Source of the DNA: Eledone cirrhosa
Lineage: Eukaryota
Direction: 5' to 3'
DNA length: 64,000 bases
NCBI GenBank assembly: GCA_964016885.1
Contig: OZ024742.1
Span: 123,380,001-123,444,000, forward strand
The notes under the pieces are model-generated. The model did no database searches and had not been told where the DNA came from. It saw nothing but the letters and a program-made list of their open reading frames with translations. Position numbers and translations under genes: made by a program. Below are positions 11,657 through 63,479 of this stretch, one piece after another; position 1 is the stretch's first letter; each line of letters starts with the position of its first letter.

Positions 11657-12020
11657 CATGTCACAGTAGCAATCTGATGATAGCTAGAAAGATGGATAGA
11701 CAAATAGATAAAAAGTCATTAGAATTTAGTAGAATGATTAAAGAAACTATAGGAGAAAAATACTGTAATAAATTTAAATGAATGTAAATAAATGTAAAAT
11801 GAAATACAGTGATAACCACAATGATAAGGAAAATTGAGGATTCAAACATCCATACATGGAAAGTTGTAATCACAAATTATTAACTTAAATACTTTCCACT
11901 GTAAGACAGATCATTTTTCATGGGTGCTATGGTAGTTCATACATATATAGGCACACATCACACACACACACATACATATGTGTGTGTATGTGTGTGTGTG
12001 AGTGTGTATGTATATATATA
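11657..12020 (+). repeat. Left arm of a ~370-bp inverted duplication
   Basis: Reverse complement of ~14888-15286, with a few substitutions and one 13-bp indel. Confidence 0.95.
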
Positions 12021-12029
12021 GATATATAT

Positions 12030-12067
<38 letters not shown>

Positions 12068-12069
<2 letters not shown>

Positions 12070-14886
12070 TCATCATCATCATCATCAACGTTTAACGTCC
12101 GTGTTCCACGCTTGCATGGGTTTGGACGGGGGTAGTCCCACTTGAGGCAAGAGTGATTGTCTTGCTCGCATAGGACTGTCTGGCAGGTTTTCTACAGTTG
12201 GATGCCCTTCCTAACACCAACCACATTTACAGTGTGGGTCTGGGAGGTTTTTACCGTGTTGCCTACACGGCCACATTACAGCGTGGACTGTGTGTTTTTT
12301 TGTCGTGACACCTACACGATCTCATTTGTTTCGGCCTCGATGGCGCGGCACCAACATAACTTTACATAGAACGGGGTGGTGTGGATGGGGTAGGGGTGGG
12401 GGTGGTGGGACGGGGTGTATTTTGTTAGGGATGCCTACTGGCTGGAGTAGGTTTTACTATATATTTAGGTAAGGCGGGTCTTCTCTGTTACTGAGTACCG
12501 CCAAAGGTCTCGGTCCAGTGACATTGTCTTGGAGAGGTGTAAGTGTGTGATGTCGGAGTTTATCAGCTCGTCCCAGGTTTTTCTAGGTCTGCCTATTCCG
12601 TGACTACCGTCTATCTTTATTGCCCTGCACTTTGTTATACAGCTATCGACTTTCATGCGCATCACGTGTCCATACCAACGTAGCCTTCTCTCGAGTAAAC
12701 AACATCTGATCCCTCTTATCTCTAATTTTTTCCTTAGTTCGTTTATGCTTTGCCGTTCACGTATATTACTGTTACACATCCAGCGGAGCATGCAAGCTTC
12801 GTTCCTCTCTAGTCTGCGTATATCCTCTGCACACAATGCCCAGGTCTCACTGCCATGCAGCATTGCTGTTCGTATGCAGGCATCGTACAACCTGCCTTTC
12901 ATTTTTAGTGAGAACCCTTTAGCAGCTAATAGTGGTATAAGCTCTCTGAACTTTTTCCAACCAGTTCTGACTCTAGCTACAGTACTTTCAGAGCACCCTC
13001 CCCCACTGCTGATTTTATCGTCCAGGTAACGGAAGCTGTCCACTATTTCTATAGAACCCTCTGCGCAATTGAAAGAGCTAGTAGCTTGTGGGCACTTGCT
13101 GCTACTTATTGCACCAGAGCACCGGCCACATGTAAAATCTATGTTCTTAGTTAGCTTACCTGTGATCCCACTACATCTTTTATGCACCCATACTTTGCAT
13201 TTAGGACATAAAATGGAGTTTCTACCTACGCCTTTCCTACACACCGAGCACGACCATTTCCCAGAAGGGACCGCCGCCTTGTTTTCTTTCCTACAAACTA
13301 GTACTTTGGTCTTAGCCAGGTTAATTTTAAGTCCTTTTGACTCTAGGCCGTGCTTCCATGTTTGGAATTTCTTCTCTAGCTCGGCCATTGATTCCGCTAT
13401 GAGTGTCAGGTCGTCTGCGTATAGGAGTTCCCATGGGCAGCCTGTCTTGAACTCCTCTGTTATAGCCTGAAGGGCAATAATAAATAGTAGTGGGCTGAGA
13501 ACAGAGCCCTGATGGACGCCAACTTTTACGCTAAACTCTTCACTATATTCGTTGTTAATTCTAACCTTGCTGACTGTTTCTTTATACATGGCTTGTATAG
13601 CCCTCACAAGCCATTCGTCAACGCCTAGTTTTCTAAGAGCCCACCAGATAATGGAGCGGGGACTCTGTCGAAGGCTTTCTCCAAGTCGACAAAAGCTAAG
13701 TAGAGGGGTTTACCTTTAGCTAGGTACTTCTCCTGTAGTTGTCGTACTATGAAAAGAGCGTCTGTGGTACTTTTGCCTGACACAAACCCGAACTGCATTT
13801 CATCTAGGTCAATTCTCTCTCTGATTAGTTGCGCTATTACTTTTTCTGTGACCTTCATGACCTGGTCGATTAATTTAATGCCTCTATAGTTACTCCTATC
13901 TAGGGCGTCTCCTTTACCCTTATAACAGTTAACGATGATGCTGCTATGCCAGTCCTTCGGAACAACCCCATTCTGTACGACTTGGTTAACTATGCGGGTG
14001 ACCATGGTGTGTCCCACCGTGCCAGATGCCTTCAGCATCTCAGCAACTATTTCCGAAGGCCCAGCCGCCTTACCCGTCTTCATATCCTTGATTGCCTTAC
14101 TTATTATACTCCCCTCGACTAACACTGCTGGTCCCTCTATTGGGTCGATATGGGGGAGACTGCCTTTCTCCCAATTATTCTCCTCATTTAGTAGCCTTTC
14201 ATAGTGACACTTCCAAGCTACCTTCTTATCCGCGTCGGTGATGGCAAGTGTGCCATCGTCGTTTAGTACACACTTCTCCCCGACAATATCACGGTTTTCC
14301 TTGACGCATTGCCTAGCAATCCTGAACACCTCACGTTTTTGGTCATCGCGTTGTAGAACATGCTTGAACTTTCTTTCCTCAGCTTCCCTTCTTGCTAAGT
14401 ACACTTGTCTCCTAGCTTCCCTCCTGGCCACTTGATAGTCCTCTCTACTTCCCCCATCCCGCCATACTTTCCAAGCCTGCTTTTTGGCCTTAAATGACCC
14501 CTCCACCTTACTGTTCCACCACCATGTTACTCTCCTCCTGCCTACAGGCCTGCTCCAGCCACAGACTTCGTCTGTCGCCAACAGCAGGTTTGCTTTCAGA
14601 AATTCCCACTCTCCCTCTATATTGTCCGACTCTAAATGTTCTTCCTTACTGTCGAAAGCATCAAGTAATATGCTTTGAAATTTATTCCTGGCTGTGGGGT
14701 CCTTTAGCTTCCATATTTTCCTCCTGAGGATAGTCCTCTTCTGTTATCGAGTACGTCTCGTCCTGACTATGAGGTCGCTAATTATCAGTCTATGTTGGGA
14801 GGTGCATTCTTCATGGGGGAGGGATTTAGTGTTTACAACAGACACTCTGTCACGTCTTCTGGTAAGGATATATAATCTACCTGGCT
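12068..14886 (-). mobile_element. RTE-clade LINE, 5'-truncated and inactivated (end of APE endonuclease, RT, PHD-like finger, 3'UTR, (ATG)n tail)
   Basis: ORFs 13625-14581 and 12465-13607 carry [35 protein letters not shown] and YADD. The 5' end encodes SQVDYI..SQHRL (APE C-terminus). Frameshift near 13655 and stop near 14745. (TA)n on both sides. Confidence 0.97.
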
Positions 14887-14887
14887 T

Positions 14888-15286
14888 ATATATATATATA
14901 TACATACACACTCACACACACACACACACACACATACACACACATATGTATGTGTGTGTGATGTGTGTGTGTGCCTATATACTTATATGTATGAACTACC
15001 ATAGCACCCATGAAAAATGATCTGTCTTACAGTGGAAATAATTTAAGTTAATAATTTTGATTACAACTTTCCATGTATGGATGTTTGAATCCTCAATTTT
15101 CCTTATCATTGTGGTTATCACTGTATTTCATTTTACATTTATTTACATTCATTTAAATTTATTACAGTATTTTTCTCCTATAGTTTCTTTAATCATTCTT
15201 AAACATATATCTACTAAATTCTAATGACTTTTTATCTATTTGTCTATCCATCTTTCTAGCTATCATCAGATTGCTACTGTGACATG
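14888..15286 (-). repeat. Right arm of the ~370-bp inverted duplication
   Basis: Reverse complement of 11657-12020; bounded by (TA)n at both ends. Confidence 0.95.
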
Positions 15287-15302
15287 TATATATATATATA
15301 TA

Positions 15303-15339
<37 letters not shown>

Positions 15340-15346
<7 letters not shown>

Positions 15347-15763
15347 AATAACAGGAGGCTTACGCCCCCTCACCAGATGGTCAGAAGTAGACTTAATAAT
15401 CAACACTCAAGGGCGATCGACTCAGGTAGAAGCTGCTAAATAGTCGGTCGTCCTCTTGTCTCTGATTTTCAGCTCCGTGGATTTCATCTGTTATATTCCT
15501 TTGTTATATTTCGAATACCTGATGATATCACCGGATTCATACTGAACCCGGTCATTGAAATGATCATAGTATAATAAACCTTTCAAGGATTTACACCAGT
15601 CCAGCCTCCTGTTATTTTATAATAATTAATTCCGTACTCGCACCACCAACTACACAAACGAAGACGGGTGAGTTGCATTACGTTGAGTACTCTCCATAAT
15701 ATTACATCGAGATTGACCATACGGACTGACCAGTTCTATCCAGTGGTGAACTAACTAACCTAA

Positions 15764-42585: not shown

Positions 42586-42618
<33 letters not shown>

Positions 42619-42655
42619 TACACAAGTATCAAAGTTATGTTCAAATCATTTAATC

Positions 42656-42700
42656 GGTGACAATTGTTTCTTCCAAACTTTAGTTTGGAGTCATCGGAGC
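42656..42700 (-). ncRNA. Type I hammerhead, mutated copy
   Basis: gct-CCGATGA-ctccaaactaaagtttggaa-GAAAC-AATT-GTC-acc. Core U4 changed to C and a stem I mismatch. Confidence 0.75.
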
Positions 42701-43009
42701 ATTATTAATGTTTGTACATATAATTAACCTCCTATTCAACTGAACAATCATATAGATACATATATATTGATGTTGTGAACAACAGTTTAGTATTTACAGG
42801 GTGTAATGGATGCGACATATATTATACGAAAATTGTACAATAATTCAAATTCAAATTCAAATTAAAATTAAAAGCACAGAGTGGAATACATACGACAGAT
42901 AATACAAGAGAATAGTCTAATAATTAAAGAGGCATTGAGAAAGAAGTTCATATTAAAGCGTGTAGAGATTGGACATGCGTTAGTCATATATATGAGAAGG
43001 AAATTATGG

Positions 43010-44293
43010 ACCCGCAAGGATACGCATAACAACTTTGACATAACTATGGGATCTAGTGACTCGGCGCAGGTCACTGATTTGGTGCGCCTATATCTACTAA
43101 ATGAAATTCATAAGAACCTACCCTACCTCAATGGTGGTTTATACCGCAATGATGCACTTTATAGACTATAAAAAATTTAATATAGAAAGAACTAGGAAAC
43201 TATTACATAACATTTTCAAAAACTTCAACTTAAGTATCACCTTAGACAAACACACTAAAAACGTTAACTTCCTCGATGCTACCCTTTACCTAGACTCTAA
43301 AATATATACAGCCTTTCATAAACCTAACGAAAAACTAATTTATGTGGATATCAAGTCTAGCCACCTTATATCTATATTAAACTCAATCACTAAAGGAATA
43401 TCTAATAGAATCTCTAATCTATCATATAACAAAGCCATATTTAACAATAATTCCCAATACTATAATCAGGCATTAGCTAAAGGAGGCCATAAAAATGGGA
43501 TTGAATTCCTACCTATAAAATCACATAGTTACAGCATTATTTCTCACAATATGGCCATGAGGAAAAATAATAAGAGTACTAGCCACTCTTACTCTAATAC
43601 GAAGGGTAATATCAAACTTAACTCGCACCAAAGTAAACACCACAATAATAATATAAACAGAAATACCTCAAAAGATATTACAAAAAACAAAAATAGAAGA
43701 ACTAATACATTCTTCAATCCCCCTTTCAATCTAAACGTCTCTACCAACTTGCCTAAGGCTTTATTCTCAATCCTAGACAAAAACTTCCCATCTGACCACA
43801 AATACCATAATCTTATAAATAAAAACACCATTAAAATCTCTTACTCTACCACACCTAACATCGCATACCATATAGCTAGTAGTAATAAAAGGAAGATTAA
43901 TAATTATTTATAACTAATTAAAACACAGCAGGAGGTAAACTTACAGAACAACATAATACCTACAAACCCTAGTAGCAATAGTAATAATAGTAATAACACT
44001 AATTAAATCAATAACAATAGGAACGACAACCATCAAAACCCTAATGCAACCCATAGCAACCAGACTTCTACACAACATAATAACTGGCAAGATAACATCC
44101 AAAATAAATGTAACTGTAGATCAAATAGAACTTGCCCATTAGGTAATAATTGCTTAATCAAAGACATCATTTACTACTGCACAGTCAAAACAAACAACTC
44201 TTCTAAAACATATATTGGCTCTACATTGAACTGCTTCAAGACGAGATACAACTCGCACCTCCACTCATTCCATAGCTTTAAACCTAGCCGCTA
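43010..44293 (+). pseudogene. Disrupted Penelope-like RT + GIY-YIG endonuclease ORF
   Basis: Frameshift near 43160, stops after 43913. 44104-44293 reads NKCNCRSNRTCPLGNNCLIKDIIYYCTVKTNNSSKTYIGSTLNCFKTRYNSHLHSF. Confidence 0.9.
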
Positions 44294-45481
44294 GTATATA
44301 ACAATGTCAGATTTGAATTCCTCACCACCATTAACACTTCCCCTCTAAGATTTTATCCCCCACAGCATCACACTCTTTGATCTGCTCTTTCCTCTACACA
44401 AATCATATTTATCTCTAACATTATACTCTACGATAACTATTAGAAATAAACATCTAGTCACCACCTTTTAATATAAATACTTTAGATTACTTATAATATA
44501 TACAGTAATTGATATATAATGTGTATAGACATTGAATGTAATATGTGACAATGAATTATATATACATTTATAATTAAAGGTATGAATTAATAACATTGTA
44601 TATAAAGGATTAATTTATTAACATATGGGATTTATCTAATTTAACATGTAAACAGCTATACATTATTCCATATCTTGCCTAGTATTGGGTAGATAACAAT
44701 CTAATGAAACCTTTAATATATTATGAGAGAGTAGACTGTATTTAAAATTAAATATAAATATATAACATTATGTAAAAGGGATTCAATTGTGACACTATAT
44801 AATGTCTATTAGAATTTAAATAGTGTAATGAGCTAGTTACCTCCCCTTACGCATTAGCTCCCCTTAATTTTTTATCACATTTCCACTTCCGGATATTAAA
44901 CCGTTGGAAAATCTCGCTGTAGAACAACTCTAATCCATGAATATGAATACAATAAGACCAAGTTACAATCCATTACTATAACTAACTAAAAACATTCAAT
45001 ACAAACATTAACTAAAATATAACTTAACATATGTAATGGATGGGAAATCAGTAACTTTCATATTCTACACAAATACAAATTTGAACTCTACAGAAACTAT
45101 CATCGCATTACATCCTCCATAATACACTAACATATTCGCTTAAAGTGCTTGTATTTTATGTAATACCTTGCCATACAGTTTCCTTCTCATATATATGACT
45201 AACACATGTGCAATCTCTACACACTTGAATATGTACTTCTTTCTCAATGCCTCTTTAATTATTAGACTATTCTCTTGTATTATCTGTTGCATGTATTCCA
45301 CTCTGTGCATTTAATTTTAATTTTAATTATAATTTTAATTATTGTACAATTCTCGTATAATATATGTCGCATCCATTACACCCTGTAAATACTAAACTGT
45401 TGTTCACGACATCAATATATATGTATCTATATGATTGTTCAGTTGAATAGGAGGTTAATTATATGCACAAACAATAATAAT

Positions 45482-45526
45482 GCTCTGATGATACCAAACT
45501 AAAGTTTGGAAGAAACAATTGTCAGC
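45482..45526 (+). ncRNA. Type I minimal hammerhead ribozyme, core intact
   Basis: gct-CTGATGA-taccaaac taaa gtttggaa-GAAAC-AATT-GTC-agc. Palindromic stem III ACAATTGT; predicted cleavage after GUC at 45523. Confidence 0.88.
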
Positions 45527-45709
45527 GATTAAATGATTTGAACATAACTTTGATACTTGTGTAATTTATATTCCTGCTCTGTAAAACACCTGATGTTCTT
45601 ACATTGAGCTATTTCTCTTACTGCTAATAAGGTAGTAATAAATTACTGACCTTTCCTGTTTATAGTTATTTATAGTATTGTATATACATAACTATAAATA
45701 GTATCATTA

Positions 45710-59824: not shown

Positions 59825-60115
59825 GTTGTGTTGGTGCCACACCATCCAGGCCGAAACAAATGAGATCGTGTAGGTGTCACGACAAAAAAACACACAGTCC
59901 ACGCTGTAATGTGGCCGTGTAGGCAACACGGTAAAAACCTCCCAGACCCACACTGTAAATGTGGTTGGTGTTAGGAAGGGCATCCAACTGTAGAAAACCT
60001 GCCAGACAGTCCTATGCGAGCAAGACAATCACTCTTGCCTCAAGTGGGACTACCCCCGTCCAAACCCATGCAAGCGTGGAACACGGACGTTAAACGTTGA
60101 TGATGATGATGATGA

Positions 60116-60119
<4 letters not shown>
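59825..60119 (+). mobile_element. RTE 3'UTR-only copy
   Basis: Almost identical to the reverse complement of 12068-12360; (TA)n on both sides. Confidence 0.93.
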
Positions 60120-60154
<35 letters not shown>

Positions 60155-60161
60155 AATATAT

Positions 60162-60191
<30 letters not shown>

Positions 60192-60193
<2 letters not shown>

Positions 60194-60519
60194 CATCATC
60201 ATCATCATCATCATCACCATTTTATGTCCGTTCTTCCATGCTAGCATGGGTTAGACAGGTTGTCCTGTTGTGGGCAGTGTCTGGTCAGTTGACCATGCCT
60301 TGCTCATACAGGAACTGTTTTTGGCATCATTTCTACAGCAAGATGCCCTTCCTAACACCAACCTCATTTACAGTGAGTGCTGGGTGCTTTTTCCGTGGCG
60401 CCTACACGTCCACTTTACAGTGTGGGTTGGGTGCTTTTTTGCCGTGGCACCTCCACGACCACCTTGCAGTGGGAGGGTGTGGGGGCATATTGTCTATATG
60501 CTTCAGCTTGTACCCATGG
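60192..60519 (-). mobile_element. RTE 3'UTR-only copy
   Basis: Close match to the reverse complement of 63154-63479; tail-to-tail with 59825-60119 across (TA)n. Confidence 0.93.
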
Positions 60520-61571: not shown

Positions 61572-61574
<3 letters not shown>

Positions 61575-63479
61575 GGTATAGCTGCCGAGATGCTGAAGGC
61601 ATCTGGGTCTGTAGGTCACACTATAACCACACGTATCGTTAACCAGGTAATACTAGAGGGGGCCATACCAAAAGATTGGTGCAGTAGCATCATTGTCAAC
61701 TGCTACAAAGGTAAAGGCGATGCACTAGATAGAGGAAACTATAGAGGTATAAAGTTGATAGACCAGGTCATGAAAGTAACAGAAAGAGTTATAGCACAGC
61801 TGATTAGGGACCGGGTGAATATAGACGAGATGCAATTTGGGTTTGTTCCAGGGAAAGGCACCACTGATGCGCTCTTCCTTGTGAGGCAATTACAGGAAAA
61901 GTACCTAGCTAAAAGTAAGCCACTCTACTTGGCATTTGTCGACCTTGAGAAAGCCTTTGACAGAGTTCCACGTGCAGTAATCTGGTGGGCTCTTAGAAAA
62001 CTAGGAGTAGATGAATGGCTTGTGAAAGCGGTACAAGCCATGTATAGGGGAGCAGTCAGCAAAGTTAGGATTGGCAATGAGTATAGCGAGGAATTTAGCG
62101 TACAGGTTGGGGTCCACCAGGGCTCTGTTCTTAGCCCTCTCCTGTTCATCATAGTCCTGCAGGCAATAACGGAGGAGTTTAAGACCGGATGCCCATGGGA
62201 ACTCCTGTATGCTGATGACCTCGCACTCATAGCTGAATCTATGGTAGAACTAGAGAATAAATTCCAAACCTGGAAGCAGGGACTAGAGAGAAAGGGCCTC
62301 AAAGTCAACATGACAAAGACTAAGGTCCTTATAAGTAGACGAGAAAACAGAACCCAGATCCCCTCAGGGAAATGGCCTTGCTCAGTATGTAGGAAAGGTG
62401 TAGGTAGGAACTCCATTCTTTGCCCCAAATGCAAACAATGGGTACACAAGAGATGTAGCGGGATCTCAGGAAGCTTAATTAAGAATGTAGGATTCACATG
62501 CAGCAGCTGTGCTGAAACAGCAAGCAAACAGCCACAGGAAACAAGTACCACCAATCTCTGGGAGGGCCCTGTAGAAACAGTAGACAGCTTCTGCTACCTA
62601 GGTGACCGAATTAGCAACGGAGGTGGGTGCTCAGAAAGTACAATAACTAGGGTAAGAACGGGATGGAAGAAGTTTAGGGAACTACTACCACTGCTAGCTG
62701 CAAAAGGCTTCTCCCTCAGAATGAAAGGCAGACTGTATGATGCGTGTATCCGAACAGCGATGTTGCATGGTAGTGAGACCTGGGCGCTGAAGGTGGAAGA
62801 CTTACGTAGATTAGAGAGAAACGAAGCCTGCATGCTCCGATGGATGTGTAACAGTAATATACGTGAACGACAAAGCATAAATGAATTGAGAGAGAGACTG
62901 AGCATAAGAGGAATCAAATGCTGCGTGCAGGAGAGGCGGTTACGCTGGTATGGACATGTGATGCGTATGAAGGATGACAGCTGCATAAAAAGGTGCAGAG
63001 CACTAGAAGTTGATGGAAACCGCGGAGTGGGGAGACCCAAGATGACTTGGGATGAGGTGATAAAAGCCGACCTTACCCAACTACACCTCTCAAAGTCAAT
63101 GACACACGACCGTGACTTCTGGCGTCACGCAGTAATACAGGGTACCCGACCTCCCATGGGTACATGCTGAAGCATATAAACAATATGCCCCCCCCCCCCC
63201 CCACCGCAAGGTGGTCGTGGAGGTGCCACGGCAAAAAAGCACCCAGCCCACACTGTAAAGTGGACGTGTAGGCGCCACGAAAAAGCACCCAGCACTCACT
63301 GTAAATGAGGTTGGTGTTAGGAAGGGCATCCAGCTGTAGAAATCAAGCCAGATCAGTTCCTGTATGAGCAAGGCATGGTCAGCCGACCAGACACTGCCCA
63401 CAACAGGACAACCCGTCTAACCCATGCTAGCGTGGAAGAACGGACGTAAAACGGTGATGATGATGATGATGATGATGAT
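61572..63479 (+). mobile_element. RTE-clade LINE, 5'-truncated, young
   Basis: Uninterrupted RT frame, modular 3'UTR, terminal stem-loop and (GAT)n tail; (TA)n on both sides. Confidence 0.97.
61590..63170 (+). CDS. RTE ORF remnant: reverse transcriptase + PHD-like zinc finger + C-terminal domain (lacks endonuclease)
   Basis: 526-aa open frame with [45 protein letters not shown] and [11 protein letters not shown]. The ATG is internal to the original ORF, so expression is not implied. Confidence 0.9.

What the first reader, a model, noticed from the sequence alone, without database searches (positions are those of the whole stretch)
11657..15286. RTE LINE enclosed by a ~370-bp inverted duplication of flanking DNA hinged on (TA)n
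The structure is A-(TA)n-RTE-(TA)n-reverse-complement(A)-(TA)n, where A looks like ordinary unique flank running up to the microsatellite. LINEs normally make short direct TSDs. Two models: snap-back synthesis at the self-complementary (TA)n made a palindrome that the RTE later interrupted, or the RT switched template at (TA)n during insertion and copied the flank backwards (an inverted target duplication). The result mimics a composite TIR element and would form a long dsRNA stem if transcribed.
Basis: partly seen in the sequence, partly recalled or inferred. Interest (0 to 1): 0.75.

Follow-up and report, generated by a model that had tools for sequence, protein, structure and literature searches.

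The report
TA-repeat fold-back duplication holding a LINE
A 380-base piece of neighbouring DNA is copied backwards around a young jumping gene; similar mirror copies occur at TA repeats elsewhere in this genome with no such gene, so a broken TA repeat likely folded back first and the gene likely landed in it afterwards.

Summary
The structure is real. Arms at 11657-12036 and 14887-15286 enclose a young, 5'-truncated RTE-like LINE (99.7% to sister copies). Read-derived contigs hold both arm variants and the outer junction; they are probably from the assembly's own sample. The left arm is the original; the right is a local copy ending at (TA)n. A is an old decayed repeat, not a TIR or MITE arm. 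The RTE is not needed for this shape: 1.46 Mb of sampled genome gave 8 microsatellite-hinged inverted duplications without an RTE, 3 shown locus-specific, one with a bare (TA)n hinge. RTE copies usually abut (TA)n, and 1 of 57 other copies has the same structure, near background. In both cases the arms are about threefold more changed than the RTE (7 events against 2.2 expected, P=0.007), with derived changes in the original arm. Best reading (0.55): fold-back repair at (TA)n, then RTE insertion into the hinge. Rival (0.3): made during insertion; both cases have the polarity this predicts. Known relatives are yeast break fold-backs and LINE-1 inverted duplications. The scan noted a similar mirrored flank elsewhere in this genome.

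The parts
11657..12036 (+). Left arm A, the original. Non-microsatellite part 11657-11947 is a decayed old repeat whose homology continues left of 11657. Carries a derived 13-bp deletion.
   Evidence: (L012 aligns from 11609)
12007..12067 (.). Left hinge, interrupted (TA)n
12068..14886 (-). 5'-truncated RTE-like LINE with (TGA)n tail at 12068-12087. RT and PHD coding region split by a frameshift (frames 13625-14743 and 12465-13709). 5 substitutions and 2 indels private in 2799 bp.
14887..15286 (-). Right arm, the inverted copy of A. Starts with (TA)8 at the RTE 5' junction and ends at CATG.
15287..15345 (.). Outer (TA)n with a TGCA interruption; the inferred rejoining point of the copy
   Evidence: (48-bp contig 15257-15302)
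15358..15763 (+). Element X: stub of a high-copy repeat with no long ORF seen, abutting (TA)n. 22-bp inverted self-copy at its left junction (15339-15360 = reverse complement of 15603-15624). Older than the arms (10 private substitutions in 406 bp).

Best explanation
The two arms are a local inverted duplication, likely made when a break in the self-complementary (TA)n let the free 3' end fold back, copy about 380 bases of its own flank and rejoin the far side of the repeat, and the RTE likely inserted into the (TA)n hinge afterwards. Shown: local duplication, which arm is original, RTE-free examples of the same shape, RTE preference for (TA)n. Inferred: the break, fold-back priming, end-joining, and the order of events.
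For: (1) Microsatellite-hinged inverted duplications without an RTE: 8 kept of 14 other candidates inspected, from 39 inward-hinge pairs among 1886 arrays in 1.464 Mb. Three are locus-specific in genome searches: C1:200080574 (257 bp, 95%, 2 matches), C4:200088131 (229 bp, 99%) and C4:200153296 (about 205-bp arms, 4 mismatches, bare (TA)n hinge). (2) RTE copies commonly abut (TA)n: at the 5' end 26 of 36 and 8 of 21. (3) Only 1 of 57 other RTE copies with both flanks readable has the structure, and 0 of 14 other tail-bearing pieces in the contiguous sample. A background of 8/1886 gives at least one in 57 with P=0.22. (4) Arms are more changed than the RTE in both cases: 4 events against 1.46 here, 3 against 0.74 at L234, combined P=0.007; substitutions only P=0.035. 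(5) Derived changes lie in the original arm in both cases, which copying errors in the new arm cannot explain. (6) The RTE 5' junction looks like those of sister copies.
Against: Both RTE cases have the original arm at the RTE 3' end and the copy at its 5' end, which has chance 0.25 if orientation is random. Taken alone, this locus's age gap is weak (P=0.06 all events; 0.28 substitutions only). AT-rich inverted repeats may mutate faster than RTE coding DNA, which would inflate the gap. With a stricter background (2/1886) one hit in 57 has P=0.06. Three of the 8 RTE-free cases have arms 95-97% alike to other places in the sample and may be element ends; two of the three verified cases hold other repeat stubs or 2 kb of DNA between the arms.
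Confidence: 0.55

Rival explanations
1. Made during the RTE insertion. After target-primed reverse transcription the new cDNA 3' end folded back onto the (TA)n of the strand it was attached to, a polymerase copied A backwards, and the end then joined the far (TA)n: an inverted counterpart of a target-site duplication.
For: Predicted polarity in 2 of 2 cases. Substitution age of the arms here fits the RTE (2 observed, 1.04 expected). R2 cDNA ends snap back onto cDNA or, less often, nearby target DNA (PMC11371274, passages). Primary RT ends of LINE-1 can be resected and remodelled (10.1101/2024.12.14.628481, section 9). One sister copy has an imperfect direct repeat of about 45 bp across a 99.7%-identical element (L017), so target copying might be error-prone.
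Against: RTE-free cases exist. Frequency 1 of 57 is near background. Derived changes in the original arm and a threefold excess of changes need error-prone refilling of the resected original arm.
Confidence: 0.3
2. Made when element X inserted: the upstream host end folded back at (TA)n and joined X's left end, the geometry of LINE-1 reciprocal-end inverted duplications. The RTE came later and gene conversion kept the arms alike.
For: Geometry fits, and X has a 22-bp inverted self-copy at that junction. The LINE-1 precedent includes a TA/AT microhomology.
Against: X has 10 private substitutions in 406 bp, predicting about 14 between the arms; at most 4 events are seen (P=0.001). Only 11 other X copies were compared, so a closer source copy could have been missed.
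Confidence: 0.09
3. Assembly artefact or haplotype fusion.
For: Arm differences (about 1.4 events per 100 bp) are of a size that alleles can show. The RTE junction could not be read. The runs are probably the assembly's own sample.
Against: Both inner arm variants appear at equal contig depth (12-13), the outer junction at 10.9, the left flank at 11.8 and the shared arm at 20.9. The arm contig breaks exactly at 11657. A second case and RTE-free cases exist.
Confidence: 0.03

Closest known systems
LINE-1 insertions with inverted duplication of genomic DNA (10.1101/2024.12.14.628481; passages and section 9 read)
   Same: Inverted copy of flank DNA beside a non-LTR insertion, explained by self-annealing of a resected end, once with TA/AT microhomology.
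   Different: The two reported duplications are on the reciprocal (5'-flank) end and do not enclose the element. Here the 3'-side flank is copied and the element lies between the arms. Somatic or cultured human cells there, inherited DNA here.
Local fold-back inverted duplications at double-strand breaks in yeast (PMC11724301; abstract and outline read)
   Same: Fold-back priming next to the break, synthesis, then capture by end-joining.
   Different: Mostly 5-34 bp there; 41-380 bp here, hinged on a microsatellite.
Snap-back 5' junctions of R2-protein insertions (PMC11371274; passages read)
   Same: cDNA 3' end primes antisense synthesis on cDNA or nearby target DNA before 5' joining.
   Different: Engineered R2 in rDNA, mostly copying the cDNA itself. 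Here no RTE sequence is copied.
Inverted structures of Penelope-like elements (PMC8557442; passages read)
   Same: Inverted repeats next to (TA)n; the likely source of most local inverted repeats in this genome sample (23 of 38 have a microsatellite at one outer end only; 2 of these tested and high-copy).
   Different: Those arms are element sequence with (TA)n outside. Here the arm is locus-specific flank with (TA)n inside.

Membership tests
RTE-clade LINE | single ORF with AP endonuclease and RT | tested here: met
   Sister copy L022: one 991-aa ORF with Exo_endo_phos, RVT_1 and PHD; the window copy keeps RVT_1 and PHD
RTE-clade LINE | 3' tail of short tandem repeats; 5' truncation | tested here: met
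   (TGA)n at 12068-12087; sisters extend further 5'
RTE-clade LINE | RT phylogeny within the RTE clade | not tested
   No reference set on hand; the RTE label rests on anatomy and recall
RTE-clade LINE | direct target-site duplication with the T-stretch signature (PMC6007223, abstract) | tested here: inconclusive
   Any duplication is hidden in (TA)n on both sides
LINE-1-type reciprocal-end inverted duplication | duplicated DNA comes from the element's 5' flank | tested here: not met
   Relative to the RTE the original arm is the 3' flank. Relative to X the geometry fits but the age does not.
Break fold-back inverted duplication | copy starts at a self-complementary sequence and ends at a join to the other side | tested here: met
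   (TA)n hinge; copy ends at CATG joined to (TA)n
Break fold-back inverted duplication | typical size 5-34 bp (yeast) | tested here: not met
   380 bp
Break fold-back inverted duplication | dependence on a break, resection, polymerase and end-joining | not testable with these tools
   needs experiment
Composite TIR element or MITE | near-identical arms at many loci, outer target duplication, transposase | tested here: not met
   Only the two arms exceed 79% identity among 40 scored matches; outer flanks unrelated; no transposase-length ORF
Penelope-like inverted insertion | arms are the element's own young terminal sequence | tested here: not met
   A is 67-79% to other places and runs on into the left flank

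The most novel reading that the evidence does not exclude
RTE insertion at (TA)n makes 'inverted target duplications' on the primary reverse-transcription side in about 2% of events, enclosing the new copy in 180-380-bp mirror arms, with error-prone refilling of both arms. This outcome was not among the LINE-1 inverted duplications read here, which were all on the reciprocal end.
Probability: 0.3. Interest if true: 0.6.

Novelty: new variant of a known kind. Interest (0 to 1): 0.33.

Why it matters
On the best reading, (TA)n microsatellites in this large animal genome are recurrent hinges for inherited fold-back duplications of 40-400 bp (3 to 8 cases plus this one in 1.46 Mb sampled). They add inverted repeats that look like TIR elements and can mislead repeat annotation. 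This shows a repair outcome known from yeast and cancer cells at work in a germ line. If the rival holds, it adds a new integration outcome for LINEs. No function for this locus is indicated.

Tried and rejected
Composite TIR or MITE: rejected. X as cause: disfavoured on age. Penelope-type inverted end: rejected for this locus. No RNA holder was listed, which says nothing on expression. The RAD-seq run X4 did not cover the locus. The RTE junction and RTE zygosity could not be read because 14800-14976 was skipped. Rfam on five loci gave only sub-threshold microsatellite matches and no hammerhead in X, so X's class stays open. Two genome searches with RTE 3' ends returned nothing, probably because very common words are skipped; a third gave positions but no DNA, so the RTE sample stayed at 57. 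Dropped rows: 24 of 81 distinct RTE loci lacked 300 bp on both sides; 8 duplicate loci removed. Of 39 inward-hinge pairs, 15 were inspected; the rest were judged from coordinates to lie inside larger inverted repeats or to repeat an event. Six inspected were rejected as low-complexity, multi-copy or tandem-derived. The C5 block (200 kb) is satellite with no arrays and is included in the 1.464 Mb. Literature: searches listed no paper whose title or abstract start describes (TA)n-hinged flank duplications around RTE elements; the library lacks most subscription journals, and no supplements were opened (bioRxiv supplements are closed and may hold further LINE-1 cases).

Full report
Setting. The window is G000:C3:123380001-123444000 of a 3.0-Gb animal genome, rich in (TA)n (71 tandem-repeat rows). 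A cephalopod origin is my inference and was not tested.

Observation. The arms are real: 11657-12036 and 15286-14887, 401 columns at 91.5%. Outside the microsatellite they differ by two adjacent substitutions and indels of 13, 1 and 6 bp in 291 bp. Between them lies a minus-strand LINE (12068-14886) with a (TGA)n tail, RVT_1 and PHD domains, truncated at its 5' end and split by a frameshift. A sister copy has one 991-aa ORF with endonuclease, RT and PHD. The RTE label rests on this anatomy; no tree was made.

What A is. A matches 38 other scored places at 67-79%; only the two arms are near-identical. It is an old decayed repeat duplicated locally. Its homology to relatives continues left of 11657, while the right arm stops at CATG and joins (TA)n. 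So the left arm is the original and the right arm is the copy. The relatives keep the 13 bases that the left arm lacks, so that deletion is derived in the original arm.

Read support. Contigs from three runs of one sample, probably the assembly's own, hold the left arm without a difference from 11657 to 11947 (depth 20.9), both inner variants (12-13), the left flank (11.8) and a 48-bp piece across the outer junction (10.9). This argues against mis-assembly and suggests that both haplotypes carry both arms, although the tool warns that contig depth is not copy number. The RTE junction was skipped as repeat.

Is it tied to RTE insertion? Of 81 distinct other loci from two young RTE-like families, 57 had 300 bp on both sides. 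Many abut (TA)n (5' end: 26 of 36 and 8 of 21). One, L234 (C4, 223.57 Mb), has the same structure: 178-bp arms at 96.6%, the original at the RTE 3' end, the copy at the 5' end bounded by (TA)19. In the contiguous sample 0 of 14 other tail-bearing pieces had it.

Does it occur without an RTE? Local inverted repeats are common: 38 locally specific pairs in 664 kb, 23 with a microsatellite at one outer end only. Two of those were tested and are high-copy elements; they fit the inverted, microsatellite-biased insertions of Penelope-like elements (PMC8557442, passages; the Penelope label for their coding remnants is by eye, and Pfam found nothing in window 43101-43910). A separate scan of 1886 microsatellite arrays in 1.464 Mb found 39 inward-hinge pairs and none in a 20-26-kb control. 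Of 14 other candidates inspected, 8 are hinge-type duplications with no RTE. Three are locus-specific in genome searches. One of these is a palindrome with about 205-bp arms around a bare (TA)n, the intermediate that the palindrome-first model needs. Three of the eight may be ends of elements. At 8/1886, one hit in 57 RTE copies has P=0.22; at 2/1886, P=0.06.

Ages. The window's RTE has 5 substitutions and 2 indels not shared with any of 14 close sisters that cover the site, in 2799 bp; X has 10 substitutions in 406 bp against 11 copies. The arms show 4 events where RTE age predicts 1.46 (P=0.06) and X age about 14 (P=0.001). At L234 the arms show 3 substitutions against 0.74, two of them derived in the original arm. 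Combined, 7 against 2.2, P=0.007. The duplication is therefore much younger than X and probably somewhat older than the RTE, provided mutation rates are alike.

Mechanism. Most likely a break in (TA)n left a 3' end that annealed to (TA)n on its own strand, primed about 380 bases of backward synthesis and rejoined the far (TA)n. The RTE then used the hinge as an ordinary target. These steps are inferred. They follow fold-back duplications at yeast breaks (PMC11724301, abstract) and at LINE-1-induced ends (10.1101/2024.12.14.628481, section 9). The coupled model remains open because both RTE cases have its predicted polarity and R2 cDNA ends are known to snap back onto target DNA (PMC11371274, passages).

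Verdict. Real, not a TIR element, and no function is indicated. It is a variant of known fold-back duplication with a microsatellite hinge. Interest 0.33; 0.6 if a genome-wide count shows coupling to RTE insertion.

Noticed in passing
window 61573-63479: A second RTE-like family with at least 39 other copies at about 100% identity over 1883 bp and a 561-codon open frame here; likely active very recently.
   Followed up: partly
window 42611-45571: 393-bp inverted arms (95%) of a high-copy element with (TA)n at the left outer end, enclosing decayed coding remnants that look Penelope-like by eye.
   Followed up: partly
window 59825-60519: Two RTE 3' stubs of different families face each other tail to tail across one (TA)n.
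   Followed up: no
L017 (G000:C1:291217819-291223616): A 99.7%-identical RTE copy is flanked by an imperfect direct repeat of about 45-50 bp at 90%; either error-prone target copying or an older tandem repeat.
   Followed up: no
L234 (G000:C4:223574519-223577991): Second RTE enclosed by an inverted flank duplication, with the same polarity as the finding.
   Followed up: yes
L047-L057: Family X is at least 1.9 kb long with no long ORF seen, sometimes tandem, and has inverted segments upstream in 3 of 11 copies; class unresolved.
   Followed up: partly
G000:C5:60000001-60200000: The block begins with a 19-bp satellite and has no dinucleotide arrays in 200 kb.
   Followed up: no
sampled blocks of C1, C2, C3, C4, C14: RTE-like pieces are very uneven: 36 (GAT)n runs in the 264-kb block with the window, 0-7 in each other 200-kb block.
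   Followed up: no
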